Source of the DNA: a virus
Lineage: Duplodnaviria; Caudoviricetes
DNA length: 64,000 bases
Strand: one strand, 5' to 3'
IMG/VR virus record: IMGVR_UViG_3300020161_002811
Location: 1-64,000 of that record
The notes under the pieces are model-generated. The model saw only the letters and a program-made list of their open reading frames with translations, was not told where the DNA came from and did not search any database. Made by a program: the position numbers and the translations under genes. Positions 1 to 25,711 of this stretch are shown here, piece after piece (the first letter of the stretch is position 1; the number at the start of each line of letters is the position of its first letter).

Positions 1-38
1 ATTAATAATACTGATAAAATATTTTTGAATTTAGACAT
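1..38 (-). CDS. 5' end of a gene running off the left edge (MSKFKNILSVLL...)
   Basis: ATG at 38 on the minus strand, preceded by GAGGGAG RBS; TACTATA motif 35 nt upstream. Only 12 codons are visible. Confidence 0.6.
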   Translation of the reverse strand, partial: MSKFKNILSVLL

Positions 39-72: not shown

Positions 73-81
73 TATAGTAAT
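73..81 (-). promoter_or_regulatory. candidate late promoter motif ATTACTATA
   Basis: Same core at 1287-1293 and 25704-25710; each is intergenic and 32-35 nt upstream of an ATG. Confidence 0.5.
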
Positions 82-90
82 GACACAAAT

Positions 91-127
91 AAAAAAAGGG
101 CTATGACATGTAGCCATAGCCCTTTTT
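91..127. terminator. intrinsic terminator, symmetric A/T tails
   Basis: AAAAAGGGCTATG-9 nt loop-CATAGCCCTTTTT, just downstream of the 144..278 gene. Confidence 0.85.
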
Positions 128-143
128 AATTGAAACGATTAAA

Positions 144-278
144 TTACATCTTCTTCTTTTTCTTAGCTATTGCAGCCTGGATAAAAGGGGGAAGTTTCTT
201 TTGTGCTGCAGACATGCCAGCTGTTTTTTTTGAAGCTGTCTTCTTAGGTGCAGCTGCTTTCTTTTTCATCATTGCCAT
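144..278 (-). CDS. 44-aa Lys/Ala-rich basic protein (histone-H1-tail-like composition)
   Basis: Hand-translated: MAMMKKKAAAPKKTASKKTAGMSAAQKKLPPFIQAAIAKKKKKM; AAAGGA RBS; below the ORF-track cutoff. Confidence 0.8.
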   Translation of the reverse strand: MAMMKKKAAAPKKTASKKTAGMSAAQKKLPPFIQAAIAKKKKKM

Positions 279-319
279 AATTTTATTCCTTTGTCTTAAA
301 CTAAGACTGAAAATTAATT

Positions 320-433
320 TCAGTACATTTTCTTGGTACCCATTTTCTTAGTACCCATTTTCTTGGTACTCATTTTTTTAGTGCTCATCTTCTTAGATTC
401 ACTCATTTTTTTGTTTCCGACGTGACCAGCCAT
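320..433 (-). CDS. 37-aa Lys/Met-rich repeat peptide
   Basis: Hand-translated: MAGHVGNKKMSESKKMSTKKMSTKKMGTKKMGTKKMY; starts 2 nt after the upstream stop; synonymous variation between repeats preserves the frame. Confidence 0.75.
   Translation of the reverse strand: MAGHVGNKKMSESKKMSTKKMSTKKMGTKKMGTKKMY
326..418. repeat. 15-bp tandem repeat, 4 good and 2 degenerate copies, encoding KKM(G/S)T
   Basis: CATTTTCTTGGTACC / CATTTTCTTAGTACC / CATTTTCTTGGTACT / CATTTTTTTAGTGCT at 326, 341, 356, 371. Confidence 0.9.
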
Positions 434-435
434 AA

Positions 436-702
436 TTACACCCCCTCTACTTTCTTTTTTCCTTCAGTAGATTTTTTATAATGCCACATCATGTGACCCT
501 GCATTTGGTCGTCAACTTTGTCAACCTGCTCATCTACATGATCTATTTTTGAATGAAGGTCAATGATTTGATCCTTAACTTCTAGTAAAACAGAAGCTAC
601 CGTGTTATGGTCATTTTTATTTTCTTTACGACTTCTTTGAATGAGAACAACTAGTGGCCCCAAAATTACGGCTGAAATTATTGTAGACCAGAAAGCTGAC
701 AT
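436..702 (-). CDS. small membrane protein, N-terminal TM helix plus coiled coil (holin-like, resembles actinophage DUF2746-type proteins)
   Basis: Hydrophobic MSAFWSTIISAVILGPLVVLI followed by heptad-like IIDLHSKIDHVDEQVDKVDDQM. Confidence 0.55.
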   Translation of the reverse strand: MSAFWSTIISAVILGPLVVLIQRSRKENKNDHNTVASVLLEVKDQIIDLHSKIDHVDEQVDKVDDQMQGHMMWHYKKSTEGKKKVEGV

Positions 703-705
703 GGT

Positions 706-993
706 TTACCATTTTACTTTATTTGCCCAAAAGGCTGCAGAAAGCTTACCCTTGGCAATGTTCGCAGCATGTCGTGCTTTAAAGGACTTTCTTCTAGCTG
801 CGTCAGAAGAAGATTCACCCTTCTTTGCGGGAGAGCCAGATACGCCTTGCTGACCAAAGCGAATAGTCTTAACTGTATCTCCAGACTTAGCCACAACTAC
901 ATGTGACTTAGTGGGGTGACTAGGTGTTCGCTTGGGTTTATTGTAACCAGAAACTCCAGCTTTAGTTAATCGTGAATCTTTTTTTGCCGCCAT
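706..993 (-). CDS. 95-aa basic conserved phage protein (IRFGQQG...RRKSFKARH...SAAFWA type)
   Basis: Very K/R-rich; I recall this motif set from uncultured aquatic phages; function unknown. Confidence 0.75.
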   Translation of the reverse strand: MAAKKDSRLTKAGVSGYNKPKRTPSHPTKSHVVVAKSGDTVKTIRFGQQGVSGSPAKKGESSSDAARRKSFKARHAANIAKGKLSAAFWANKVKW

Positions 994-1103
994 TATTTTT
1001 TCTTTCTAGCTTTACGTTTTTTACCTAAAACTGGACCATTGCTTTTTTGGTTATTTGTACCCATGCGAGGACCACTAATGTAAATTGACTTTTTAAAAGC
1101 CAT
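993..1103 (-). CDS. 36-aa basic peptide
   Basis: Hand-translated: MAFKKSIYISGPRMGTNNQKSNGPVLGKKRKARKKK; TAATG stop/start overlap with the 706..993 gene. Confidence 0.75.
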   Translation of the reverse strand: MAFKKSIYISGPRMGTNNQKSNGPVLGKKRKARKKK

Positions 1104-1105
1104 GA

Positions 1106-1255
1106 TTACTTCTGCTTTTTAGCGTTTTTCCAATGATCTGAATACTTAGTATCTGTCTTTGGGAAATCTTGGACATTCATTACTGCGTCTTTGAGATATT
1201 TATATTGATTTTTTTCTGAAGAAGTTTTACTTCCCCAACCTTTATCCTTAGCCAT
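1106..1255 (-). CDS. 49-aa Lys-rich protein
   Basis: Hand-translated: MAKDKGWGSKTSSEKNQYKYLKDAVMNVQDFPKTDTKYSDHWKNAKKQK; AAGGTAGG RBS; first gene of the cassette. Confidence 0.75.
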   Translation of the reverse strand: MAKDKGWGSKTSSEKNQYKYLKDAVMNVQDFPKTDTKYSDHWKNAKKQK

Positions 1256-1286
1256 AATGACCTACCTTGTATAATAGTGTAATACG

Positions 1287-1295
1287 TATAGTAAT
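1287..1295 (-). promoter_or_regulatory. candidate late promoter motif ATTACTATA
   Basis: 32 nt upstream of the ATG at 1255, just downstream of a terminator. Confidence 0.5.
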
Positions 1296-1305
1296 CCCAT
1301 ATAGC

Positions 1306-1335
1306 AAAAAAGAGAGGCAGCGCCTCTCAATTTTG
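1306..1335 (-). terminator. intrinsic terminator
   Basis: Minus strand reads GAGAGGC-gct-GCCTCTC then TTTTTT; follows the 1347..1667 gene. Confidence 0.75.
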
Positions 1336-1346
1336 TCTATAATATG

Positions 1347-1667
1347 TTACTTTTTACTGGGTGGAGACTTCTTAGGAGCCTGAGCCTTACTCTTATCGGG
1401 TGTTGATGCGCCCTTTGGTCTTCCGGCCTTTTTCTTTTGCGGGACCTTGTCTACTGAAGGGGCAGATTTAGCGACAGGAGATGCTTTAGCTGGGTCACTA
1501 GGTGTAATCTTAATGTCTGAAGACTTAGAATTAACTGACGTAGTGGGAGTTGTCCATATGATCGGCTTATCTTCCTTGACGTTAGTCTTGTCGTCTAAGT
1601 CATATCCACCAATTTTTGTTTTATTTTTAAATAGTATTTTTCTTGCTATTTTTCTAATTAGTTTCAT
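1347..1667 (-). CDS. hypothetical basic, low-complexity protein (Pro/Lys/Ser-rich tail, AT-hook-like KAGRPKG)
   Basis: ORF track; AAGGA RBS upstream. Confidence 0.7.
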   Translation of the reverse strand: MKLIRKIARKILFKNKTKIGGYDLDDKTNVKEDKPIIWTTPTTSVNSKSSDIKITPSDPAKASPVAKSAPSVDKVPQKKKAGRPKGASTPDKSKAQAPKKSPPSKK

Positions 1668-25703: not shown

Positions 25704-25711
25704 TATAGTAC
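25704..25711 (-). promoter_or_regulatory. candidate late promoter motif GTACTATA
   Basis: Intergenic, 33 nt upstream of the ATG at 25671. Confidence 0.5.

What the first reader, a model, noticed from the sequence alone, without database searches (positions are those of the whole stretch)
144..1293. Self-contained late cassette of tiny Lys-rich proteins: candidate protamine/histone-like DNA-condensing system
Seen: six genes (49, 36, 95, 88, 37 and 44 aa) are tightly coupled by a TAATG overlap and 2-4 nt gaps (except a ~40-nt gap before the last gene). A terminator (1306-1335) plus a TACTATA motif lies in front of them and a terminator (91-127) behind. Five are strongly basic, including KKAAAPKKTASKK, GKKRKARKKK and (KKM[G/S]T)n; four are absent from the ORF track. 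Known: short basic proteins condense viral DNA in adenovirus (pVII, mu) and baculovirus (p6.9). Inference: a separately expressed operon of genome-coating or ejected core peptides, or inhibitors of host nucleic-acid-binding complexes. The single membrane/coiled-coil gene in the middle could anchor them.
Basis: partly seen in the sequence, partly recalled or inferred. Interest (0 to 1): 0.75.

Follow-up and report, generated by a model that had tools for sequence, protein, structure and literature searches.

The report
Conserved array of tiny polycationic phage proteins
An uncultured freshwater phage carries a conserved, separately punctuated row of six very small genes, five for lysine-rich proteins; their best-conserved member sits among head-assembly genes in hundreds of other aquatic phages, so they probably bind the phage's DNA, but nobody has tested this.

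Summary
Six minus-strand ORFs (49, 36, 95, 88, 37, 44 aa) lie at the stated coordinates. Spacing is 2-3 nt or a TAATG overlap, plus one 41-nt gap, between two intrinsic terminators. All six are real genes: colinear synteny in 30 of 30 distinct relatives, and dN/dS 0.06-0.21, like the neighbouring enzymes.

The core is g36-g95-g88-g44; g49, g37 and the upstream AT-hook-like g106 are accessory. Relatives add further small basic families (DUF6496, DUF5872 and others).

The 95-aa protein is phrog_7595. It occurs in over 600 IMG/VR contigs and 46 cultured aquatic phage records. In unrelated phages its neighbours are mostly portal, terminase, minor head, scaffold and capsid genes. Its domain is also fused into a polyvalent-type protein encoded next to a portal gene.

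That gives indirect support to a DNA-associated, head-linked role. Virion presence, DNA binding and late timing remain untested. No sequence or fold similarity to protamines, histones or any characterised family was found.

A terminator followed by TTACTATA is conserved in relatives. The motif also precedes the tail-sheath gene.

This scan has noted the same kind of cluster before on other DNA (look-alikes in 81 genomes). Verdict: real, widespread and uncharacterised; moderately interesting.

The parts
1347..1667 (-). g106: 106-aa Lys-rich protein just upstream of the cassette. It has an N-terminal basic amphipathic segment, a GGYDLDDK motif and an AT-hook-like KKAGRPKG core.
   Evidence: ORF. 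Net charge +18, pI 10.3. The (K)KPG(R/K)PK core is kept in all 24 distinct homologues while the middle of the protein varies. dN/dS 0.30. Found in 15 of 30 distinct relatives.
1312..1328 (-). Intrinsic terminator-like hairpin (7 bp, 5 GC) followed by TTTTTT. It ends the replication/g106 transcription unit.
   Evidence: A hairpin plus T-run is kept at this position in relatives.
1287..1294 (-). TTACTATA promoter-like motif, 39 nt upstream of the g49 ATG.
   Evidence: It is kept about 35-45 nt upstream of the g49 start in divergent relatives whose flanks differ, and lies inside the hairpin arm in some of them. The same motif precedes the tail-sheath gene.
1106..1255 (-). g49: 49-aa basic protein with the conserved motifs GWGSKTSS and YYKLLKD.VMNV.
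   Evidence: dN/dS 0.20. Found in 18 of 30 relatives. AAGGTAGG ribosome-binding site.
993..1103 (-). g36: 36-aa protein with a conserved N-terminal KK.IYISGPRMGTNNQKSNGPV segment and a variable K/R tail.
   Evidence: dN/dS 0.21. Found in 23 of 30 relatives. Net charge +12, pI 11.8.
706..993 (-). g95: 95-aa member of phrog_7595 and the most conserved gene of the cassette. The model shows a beta-hairpin (KSHVVVAK.G..VKTIRFGQQG) followed by a basic helix that ends in KVKW.
   Evidence: phrog_7595 at E 2e-40. 46 cultured phage records. 30 invariant columns in 42 sequences. dN/dS 0.057. Head/packaging neighbours elsewhere. Fused forms exist.
436..702 (-). g88: 88-aa near-neutral protein with an N-terminal transmembrane helix and a His/Asp-rich coiled-coil-like segment (HLHHKIDHVDEQVDKVDDQM.DHMMWH).
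   Evidence: phrog_32850 at E 2.7e-12. Found in 29 of 30 relatives, always directly after g95. dN/dS 0.14. Small transmembrane neighbours of g95 are not seen in other lineages.
320..433 (-). g37: 37-aa (KKM[G/S][T/S])n peptide that always ends in KKMY, encoded on a 15-bp tandem repeat.
   Evidence: Repeat number varies from 4 to 6 among relatives while the reading frame and the KKMY end are kept. dN/dS 0.12. Detected in 13 of 30 relatives.
144..278 (-). g44: 44-aa protein with an H1-tail-like K/A/P N-terminal half and an invariant G(L/M)T.AQKKLPPFIQ.AI segment followed by a poly-K end.
   Evidence: Found in 28 of 30 relatives. dN/dS 0.125. The motif recurs in 122 clusters (50% identity) of a 1.84-billion-protein library, often in tandem inside longer proteins.
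93..127 (-). Strong intrinsic terminator-like hairpin (15 pairs) plus T-run that closes the six-gene unit.
   Evidence: It is conserved in the nearer relatives and absent in distant ones, where further small basic genes follow directly.
73..80 (-). Second TTACTATA motif, 43 nt upstream of the next gene.
   Evidence: Conserved as CATTACTATA in relatives.
1..37 (-). Start of the next gene, cut by the contig end. It is complete in the near-identical locus L082 8001-9413: a 471-aa secreted Ig-like protein with a C-terminal LPTTG sorting signal.
   Evidence: Weak Big_1 match. In L082 it is followed by a VanY/PG_binding endolysin, a membrane protein and three more small basic genes.

Best explanation
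The cassette encodes a set of tiny, mostly unstructured polycations (g49, g36, g95, g37, g44, and the AT-hook-like g106 just upstream) that bind nucleic acid, most likely the phage's own DNA. It is transcribed as its own unit from a phage-specific TTACTATA promoter that the tail-sheath gene also has.

The proposed mechanism has three steps:
1. The proteins are made in bulk together with the virion proteins.
2. They neutralise and compact phage DNA in or on its way into the head.
3. They may be ejected with the DNA into the next cell.

g88, the one membrane/coiled-coil protein, is a conserved partner specific to this lineage, and its role is unclear.

Shown: the genes are real and under purifying selection; their charge; the punctuation; the wide distribution of g95; its head-module neighbourhood elsewhere; and its fusion into a polyvalent-type head-module protein.

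Inferred: DNA binding, late timing, presence in the virion, and condensation.
For: - Real, selected genes: colinear order in 30 of 30 distinct cassettes. dN/dS is 0.06-0.21 against 0.12-0.21 for the flanking genes g114 and dNMP kinase.
- Charge: net +6 to +18 with almost no acidic residues. g44 has an H1-like K/A/P tail. g106 has a conserved GRP AT-hook-like core.
- Unit structure: terminator plus TTACTATA on both sides. The motif is kept in divergent relatives and precedes the tail-sheath gene. 4 of 23 TACTATA sites fall in the 4.4% of the contig that is non-coding (P = 0.018).
- g95 context in 74 unrelated loci: the nearest large same-strand neighbours are dominated by head and packaging families: phrog_578 in 17 of 65, plus terminase, portal, minor head, scaffold, protease and major head.
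- In cyanosiphoviruses KBS-S-2A and MED4-184, g95 lies between the minor head protein and the scaffold/coat genes.
- Fusions: P0009 combines an InPase domain, a DUF6496-like segment seen by eye in its sequence, the g95 domain and a weak kinase match. It is encoded two genes after the portal gene and before the capsid genes. InPase is described as restricted to phage-type polyvalent proteins that are predicted to be packaged (PMC5512222).
- P0051 (F6 domain plus g95) lies in a row of small genes before TerL and portal.
- P0128, a protein with g44-type motifs, abuts TerL.
- Small basic ORFs are enriched directly upstream of g95 in other lineages: 22 of 64 against 12 of 96 for control genes, P = 0.0014.
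Against: - There is no direct evidence of DNA binding, virion presence or timing.
- In this phage the cassette is not in the head module. It lies between the replication genes and the lysis block.
- Identity of 75-85% for g95 across podo-, sipho- and myoviruses of different hosts argues for a universal partner. That fits DNA, but it fits RNA or a conserved host machine equally well.
- Proteins loaded into procapsids usually need phage-specific targeting. No shared targeting sequence or protease site is apparent.
- TTACTATA also occurs before RNase H and primase, and it is missing before other structural genes. 'Late' is therefore weak.
- The downstream enrichment of basic neighbours is not significant.
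- The AF2 model is of low confidence and matches no fold.
Confidence: 0.4

Rival explanations
1. The proteins act in the cytoplasm and are not virion components. They coat or remodel host or phage DNA or RNA during infection, for example by nucleoid compaction, transcription or replication accessory roles, or protecting replicating phage DNA from host nucleases.
For: - In this lineage the cassette directly follows the replication and nucleotide-metabolism genes: DnaE-type polymerase, primase, helicase, exonuclease, a sigma factor, RNase H and dNMP kinase.
- g106 has an AT-hook-like core.
- The extreme conservation of g95 across unrelated capsid types suggests a universal target.
- TTACTATA also precedes RNase H and primase.
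- P0125, which carries the g44-type motif, lies in a replication block.
Against: In most other phages g95 sits in head and packaging modules. It is fused into a polyvalent-type protein encoded next to a portal gene.
Confidence: 0.25
2. g95, and possibly its partners, is a DNA-packaging accessory factor. It would be a small DNA-binding or DNA-bending protein that helps the terminase recognise or start on phage DNA (TerS-like or IHF-like), not a bulk condensing agent.
For: - Terminase large subunit families and portal are frequent immediate neighbours.
- P0051 and P0128 lie directly upstream of TerL.
Against: - In this lineage, in cobaviruses and in S-EIV1 the gene is far from the terminase.
- L170 has a separate 141-aa gene at the TerS position, with only a very weak Terminase_2 match (E 0.058).
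- Packaging-specificity factors diverge with their pac or cos sites, whereas g95 is nearly invariant.
Confidence: 0.1
3. The cassette is part of the lysis machinery. g88 would be a holin- or spanin-like membrane protein, and the cationic peptides would disrupt the envelope, like the cationic 'disruptin' of some phages (recalled from memory).
For: - In near relatives the cassette is followed by a VanY/PG_binding endolysin and a membrane protein.
- In cobavirus ICBM2 the g95 homologue lies three genes after the endolysin, near the end of the late arm.
- In S-EIV1 a lysozyme gene lies two genes downstream.
- g88 has an N-terminal transmembrane helix.
Against: - Only 1 endolysin and 2 spanin matches occur among the 133 neighbours of g95.
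- g37 and the K/A/P tails have no hydrophobic face.
- The adjacent gene carries an LPTTG sortase signal and the membrane protein weakly resembles an actinobacterial holin. This points to a Gram-positive host with no outer membrane to disrupt.
- There is no lipoprotein partner for g88.
Confidence: 0.07
4. The proteins are ribosome- or RNA-associated and modulate translation, like the ribosomal proteins that some aquatic phages are known to carry (recalled from memory).
For: - Their composition resembles that of small ribosomal proteins.
- The weak, non-significant PDB profile hits are mostly ribosomal: uL24 KOW region at E 0.28-0.55, and uS3.
- One record annotates the next gene as 'ribosomal L37ae family'.
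Against: No match reaches significance in Pfam, NCBIfam or PDB. The gene neighbourhoods are those of head and packaging genes, not translation genes.
Confidence: 0.05

Closest known systems
Tlr6F / Pfam DUF5754 (PF19058)
   Same: It is a small protein of unknown function, conserved in nearly all polinton-like viruses, several virophages, many giant viruses and 'some poorly characterized phages' (PMC4642659; PMC12220804). Like g95 it is small, widespread in aquatic DNA viruses and sits among morphogenesis core genes. In PgVV a few Tlr6F peptides were seen in purified particles, below the significance threshold (bioRxiv 10.1101/2022.07.28.501842).
   Different: g95 scores only 10-15 bits against PF19058, whose cut-off is 27.4, and the match covers about 14 residues. 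Only 1 of 42 homologues matches at E <= 0.01. Membership is unproven, and Tlr6F itself has no known function.
Adenovirus core proteins pVII and mu; baculovirus P6.9
   Same: These are small, strongly basic proteins made late that condense viral dsDNA inside the capsid (established knowledge). They share size, charge and the proposed role with the cassette proteins.
   Different: Those proteins are Arg-rich, whereas these are Lys-rich. No sequence similarity was found. They belong to eukaryotic viruses with different packaging. Virion presence and condensation are untested here.
Phage T4 internal proteins IPI, IPII and IPIII
   Same: They are basic proteins packed in the head in hundreds of copies and injected with the DNA (established knowledge). 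They are the closest precedent in a tailed phage for DNA-associated head contents.
   Different: T4 internal proteins carry an N-terminal capsid-targeting sequence that the prohead protease cleaves. No shared N-terminal signal is evident here. There is no homology, and these proteins are far smaller and of lower complexity.
Polyvalent proteins of phages (Iyer et al. 2017, PMC5512222)
   Same: The g95 domain occurs inside a 1236-aa protein with a phage-type InPase domain, a DUF6496-like segment and a weak kinase match, encoded two genes after the portal gene. The paper notes that solo versions of polyvalent-protein domains are common and are probably deployed in the capsid too.
   Different: The window genes are single-domain proteins in their own cassette. 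The g95 domain is not among the domains I saw named in that paper. Packaging of polyvalent proteins is itself mostly a prediction.
Histone-H1-like bacterial and viral proteins (chlamydial Hc1/Hc2, AlgP) and fusellovirus SSV1 VP2 (PF25632)
   Same: The K/A/P-rich low-complexity tails of the g44 N-terminal half and the g106 C-terminal half resemble H1-type DNA-binding tails. One related cassette family (F10, phrog_20603) has a weak 13-residue match to Fusello_VP2_Capsid at E 0.003.
   Different: The resemblance is one of composition only. All matches are below threshold. The conserved parts of g36, g44, g49 and g95 are specific motifs, not H1-like repeats.

Membership tests
PHROG phrog_7595 (unknown function) | Full-length match to the family profile. 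| tested here: met
   g95 residues 2-95 match profile positions 2-96 of 96, E 2.1e-40, 138 bits.
PHROG phrog_32850 (unknown function) | Full-length match to the family profile. | tested here: met
   g88 residues 1-76 match profile positions 1-72 of 73, E 2.7e-12.
Tlr6F / Pfam DUF5754 (PF19058) | Score at or above Pfam's gathering threshold (27.4 bits). | tested here: not met
   15.0 bits in hmmscan and 10.4 bits in the genome search. 1 of 42 homologues matches at E <= 0.01. In the ESM Atlas, a look-alike cluster carries PF19058 in 12% of its members. Remote kinship remains possible but is not shown.
Pfam DUF6321 (PF19846) | Score at or above the gathering threshold (28.5 bits). | tested here: not met
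   20.6 bits, E 6.9e-4, over residues 55-83 only. 8 of 42 homologues match weakly.
Protamine / viral core DNA-condensing proteins (adenovirus pVII and mu, baculovirus P6.9) | Small size and extreme positive charge. | tested here: met
   36-95 aa, net charge +6 to +18, pI 9.7-11.8. The charge comes from Lys, not Arg.
Protamine / viral core DNA-condensing proteins (adenovirus pVII and mu, baculovirus P6.9) | Sequence or fold homology to a characterised member. | tested here: not met
   No significant hit in Pfam, NCBIfam, a PDB profile search or Foldseek.
Protamine / viral core DNA-condensing proteins (adenovirus pVII and mu, baculovirus P6.9) | Present in the virion, bound to the genome, and able to condense DNA. 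| not testable with these tools
   The only support is indirect: head-module neighbourhoods of g95 homologues and a fusion encoded next to a portal gene. I found no virion proteome that covers a homologue.
AT-hook (for g106) | A G-R-P core flanked by basic residues (canonical form R-G-R-P). | tested here: inconclusive
   The window protein has KKKAGRPKG. All 24 distinct homologues keep (K)KPG(R/K)PK. The GRP core and the basic flanks are present, but the first Arg of RGRP is replaced by Pro or Ala.
T4-type internal head proteins | A shared N-terminal capsid-targeting sequence with a prohead-protease cleavage site. | tested here: not met
   The alignments show no common N-terminal signal among the six proteins beyond Met-Ala starts. 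No prohead protease was examined.
Holin or i-spanin (for g88) | Transmembrane domain(s), a position next to the endolysin, and (for a spanin) a partner lipoprotein gene. | tested here: inconclusive
   There is one N-terminal transmembrane helix. The endolysin lies about 2 kb downstream in L082, not adjacent. No gene in the cassette has a lipobox or Cys. Only weak sub-threshold SLATT and NPV_P10 matches were found.

The most novel reading that the evidence does not exclude
Aquatic tailed phages, and perhaps polinton-like and giant viruses through Tlr6F, DUF5754 and DUF5872, share a mobile pool of tiny polycationic proteins that act as protein counter-ions and condensing agents for packaged DNA. 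On this reading, the heads of many abundant environmental phages would hold a nucleoprotein core, not naked DNA. The proteins might stand in for polyamines in oligotrophic hosts and travel into the next cell with the genome.
Probability: 0.25. Interest if true: 0.8.

Novelty: new variant of a known kind. Interest (0 to 1): 0.55.

Why it matters
Tailed phages are generally taken to package essentially protein-free DNA, with ions and polyamines neutralising its charge. Here a family kept at 75-85% identity across hundreds of unrelated aquatic phages recurs with other tiny polycations, in head modules or in cassettes of its own.

If these proteins ride with the DNA, that would change models of packaging physics, capsid pressure and early infection for some of the most abundant viruses in lakes and oceans. 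It would also give a function to several widespread DUF and PHROG families, and possibly to Tlr6F of eukaryotic viruses.

There is a practical point as well. Four of the six genes fall below common ORF length cut-offs, and their Lys content makes them nearly invisible to tryptic proteomics. They are therefore systematically missed by both annotation and proteomics.

Tried and rejected
- AF2 model of g95 from a 42-sequence alignment: mean pLDDT 67, pTM 0.42, showing a beta-hairpin plus a helix. Foldseek against the PDB gave nothing below E = 1.4. The fold is uninformative.
- PDB profile search: best E 0.14. The hits were a phage baseplate component and uL24 KOW regions, none significant.
- Pfam and NCBIfam: no match above threshold for any of the six proteins or g106.
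- ESM Atlas: only unnamed viral clusters.
- Tlr6F/DUF5754 membership fails the Pfam threshold. I could not run a profile-profile test because no tool gave me Tlr6F sequences.
- Cultured relatives of this phage lineage: g88 and g114 have no match in 50,697 phage records. No timing or proteome data therefore exist for the lineage.
- Literature on virion proteomes of carriers (the cobavirus paper, phiRIO-1, cyanosiphoviruses, HMO-2011) did not mention the protein. The S-EIV1 paper is not held.
- g36 is too short for the search for homologous proteins.
- A general pairing of g95 with a small membrane protein is rejected: 0 of 61 downstream and 3 of 64 upstream neighbours in other lineages.
- The enrichment of small basic ORFs around g95 is only moderate: significant upstream, not significant downstream. 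The control comes from the same loci and uses crude ORF calls.
I repeated it by reference. One family search was mis-specified and returned an error.
Full report
**Setting**

The window is the first 64 kb of an 82,226-bp IMG/VR contig with 37% G+C. CheckV estimates 39% completeness. Nearly all large ORFs in the window are on the minus strand.

PHROG matches identify the contig's genes:
- Structural: tail sheath, baseplate wedge and a major-head-like protein.
- Replication and nucleotide metabolism: ribonucleotide reductase, a DnaB-like helicase, an AEP-type primase, a 1111-aa DnaE-like polymerase, exonuclease, a resolvase-like nuclease, a sigma factor, RNase H and a dNMP kinase.

The cassette lies at the extreme end of the contig, downstream of the replication block. 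Related contigs of 193-206 kb exist. No cultured relative of the lineage was found.

**Observation**

The six ORFs are exactly as described:

| Gene | Coordinates | Net charge |
|---|---|---|
| g49 | 1255-1106 | +6 |
| g36 | 1103-993 | +12 |
| g95 | 993-706 | +18 |
| g88 | 702-436 | -1 |
| g37 | 433-320 | +11 |
| g44 | 278-144 | +14 |

- All six start with ATG. Spacings are 2 nt, a TAATG overlap, 3 nt, 2 nt and 41 nt.
- pI is 9.7-11.8 for all except g88, which is 6.5.
- g37 lies on a 15-bp repeat of 4.7 copies.
- Terminator-like hairpins with T-runs lie at 1328-1312 and 127-93 on the coding strand. Each is followed by TTACTATA about 40 nt before the next start codon.

**Are they genes?**

Using the upstream 106-aa gene g114 as bait, I fetched 80 related IMG/VR loci.
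- Among the 30 distinct cassette sequences with enough flank, g95 is present in 29, g88 in 29, g44 in 28, g36 in 23, g49 in 18, g37 in 13 and the upstream g106 in 15. The order is the same in all 30.
- Pairwise Nei-Gojobori dN/dS is 0.057 for g95, 0.12-0.14 for g37, g44 and g88, and 0.20-0.21 for g49 and g36. The flanking genes g114 and dNMP kinase give 0.115 and 0.21.
- dS is near saturation, and homologues were chosen by protein similarity. The values are therefore approximate, but the direction is clear.
- The alignments show specific conserved motifs, not mere composition:
  - g36: KK.IYISGPRMGTNNQKSNGPV.
  - g44: G(L/M)T.AQKKLPPFIQ.AI.
  - g49: GWGSKTSS..NYYKLLKD.VMNV.
  - g37: a variable number (4-6) of KKMG(S/T) units, always ending in KKMY.
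  - g88: a transmembrane helix followed by a His/Asp-rich coiled-coil-like segment.
  - g106: an AT-hook-like (K)KPG(R/K)PK core, kept in all 24 distinct copies while the middle of the protein varies.

**A larger pool of small basic genes**

- Relatives carry further small basic families in the same array:
  - a DUF6496 member (E 6.6e-10);
  - proteins that match the N- and C-terminal halves of DUF5872, below Pfam's threshold;
  - phrog_20603, phrog_34011, phrog_6437 and phrog_23735.
- In distant relatives, g44 is followed directly by such genes with no terminator.
- In the near-identical locus L082 the sequence beyond the contig end runs as follows:
  - a 471-aa secreted Ig-like protein with an LPTTG sorting signal;
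  - a VanY/PG_binding endolysin;
  - a membrane protein;
  - three more small basic genes.
- The cassette is thus one segment of a variable array that flanks the lysis block. 'Self-contained' holds for its transcriptional punctuation but not for its gene content.

**g95 outside this lineage**

- g95 matches phrog_7595 at E 2e-40.
The best 80 are 72-94% identical.
- 46 cultured phage records carry it, all of them aquatic. They include cobaviruses such as SIO1 (where it is unannotated), HMO-2011-type phages, several cyanosiphoviruses and a Vibrio phage.
- 30 of 95 alignment columns are invariant in 42 sequences.
- In KBS-S-2A and MED4-184 it lies between the minor head protein and the scaffold/coat genes.
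- In cobavirus ICBM2 it lies near the end of the late arm, three genes after the endolysin. In S-EIV1 a lysozyme gene lies two genes downstream.
- I took the nearest same-strand ORF of 120 aa or more on each side in 74 unrelated loci and scanned them against PHROGs.
  - Downstream: phrog_578 'head closure' in 17 of 65, then terminase large subunit, scaffold, portal, head morphogenesis, minor head, maturation protease and major head.
  - Upstream: portal families, head-tail adaptor, terminase and major head.
  - Only one endolysin and two spanin matches appear.

**Fusions**

- 959 longer proteins contain the g95 domain.
- A common 174-177-aa marine class joins an F6-like (DUF5872 C-half) segment to g95 (by eye). 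One member, P0051, sits in a row of small genes just before TerL and portal. That row includes a 70-aa basic protein that looks F8-like by eye.
- P0009 (1236 aa) has an InPase domain (E 2e-26), the g95 domain and a weak kinase match. By eye it also has a DUF6496-like stretch just before the g95 domain. It is encoded two genes after the portal gene and before the capsid genes.
- P0016 has DUF6496 (weak, E 0.004), the g95 domain and a weak kinase match.
- Iyer et al. [quoted passage not shown] They also note that solo versions of such domains are common.
- The g44 motif occurs in 122 clusters of the 1.84-billion-protein library, often as two or three tandem copies in longer, otherwise acidic proteins. 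One such protein abuts TerL and another lies in a replication block.

**Regulation**

- TTACTATA is kept about 35-45 nt upstream of the g49 start in relatives whose flanking sequence differs. In some of them it lies inside the 3' arm of the preceding hairpin.
- The motif also lies before the tail-sheath gene and before the 210-aa gene that ends the structural block.
- 4 of the 23 coding-strand TACTATA sites fall in the 4.4% of the contig that my crude ORF calling leaves non-coding (P = 0.018).
- It also occurs before RNase H and primase, and it is absent before several structural genes.
- It is therefore a plausible phage promoter element, perhaps read with the phage's own sigma factor. It does not establish late timing.

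**Interpretation**

The sequence shows a conserved, separately punctuated set of micro-proteins with specific motifs and extreme positive charge. The neighbourhood and fusion data link g95, and more weakly the g44 motif and the DUF6496/DUF5872 families, to head and packaging modules across many phages.

I therefore take the most likely role to be binding of phage DNA in connection with the head: charge neutralisation or condensation, possibly with co-ejection. I put this at about 0.4.

Rivals:
- **Cytoplasmic nucleic-acid binding (0.25).** This fits the cassette's position beside the replication genes in this lineage. It also fits g95's near-invariance across capsid types.
- **Packaging-initiation accessory (0.1).**
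- **Lysis role (0.07).** This is weakened by the neighbour census and by signs of a Gram-positive host: the LPTTG signal and a weak actinobacterial holin match.
- **Ribosome or RNA role (0.05).**

**Comparison with known systems**

- None of the proteins is a member of any characterised family.
- The nearest named entity is Tlr6F/DUF5754. It is described as conserved in polinton-like viruses, virophages, giant viruses and some phages, with unknown function (PMC4642659; PMC12220804). g95 fails its Pfam threshold, so kinship is unproven.
- By function the closest analogues are adenovirus pVII and mu, baculovirus P6.9 and the T4 internal proteins. That resemblance is one of size, charge and proposed role only.

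**Novelty**

The families are catalogued as PHROGs and DUFs but are uncharacterised. I found no paper that describes such cassettes. This scan has flagged the same kind of cluster repeatedly on other DNA (look-alikes in 81 genomes), and earlier follow-ups reached similar untested conclusions. Those notes are leads, not evidence.

I rate this as a new variant of a known kind (viral polycationic DNA-associated proteins), interest 0.55.

Noticed in passing
window 1-37 (minus strand; complete in L082:8001-9413): The gene after the cassette encodes a 471-aa secreted protein. It has a weak Big_1 Ig-like match, a Thr/Pro-rich stalk and a C-terminal LPTTG motif followed by a hydrophobic helix and a basic tail. 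This is a sortase-type cell-wall sorting signal carried by a phage, and it suggests a Gram-positive (perhaps actinobacterial) host.
   Followed up: partly
window 1287-1294, 73-80, 25704-25710; contig 78653-78660: TTACTATA or TACTATA lies 37-55 nt upstream of start codons after terminators, including the tail-sheath gene. In some relatives the motif forms part of the 3' arm of the preceding terminator hairpin, so the terminator and the promoter-like element overlap.
   Followed up: partly
window 144-278 (g44), residues 26-33: The invariant QKKLPPFI has the spacing Q-x-x-L-x-x-F-I, which resembles a PIP-box or clamp-binding motif. In the wider family it reads QKKLP.ALQ.AI, without the aromatic residue, and occurs in tandem copies inside longer acidic proteins.
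   Followed up: partly
window 436-702 (g88): The soluble part of g88 is unusually rich in conserved His and Asp (HLHHKIDHVDEQVDKVDDQM.DHMMWH). This suggests metal binding or pH sensing. The gene always directly follows g95 in this lineage.
   Followed up: no
NC_002519.1 / AF189021.1 24065-24277 (Roseobacter phage SIO1): The classic marine phage SIO1 has a g95 homologue (60% identity over residues 18-95) at a position with no annotated feature in either record.
   Followed up: no
L114:6534-9280: One relative has about 2.7 kb inserted between g49 and g36. The insert carries three paralogous 183-207-aa genes, which shows that the array is a hot spot for gene insertion.
   Followed up: no
L175:904-4023: A phage contig that carries a protein with the g44-type motif encodes a DnaE-type polymerase with an intein (PF14890 match precomputed for the product).
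   Followed up: no
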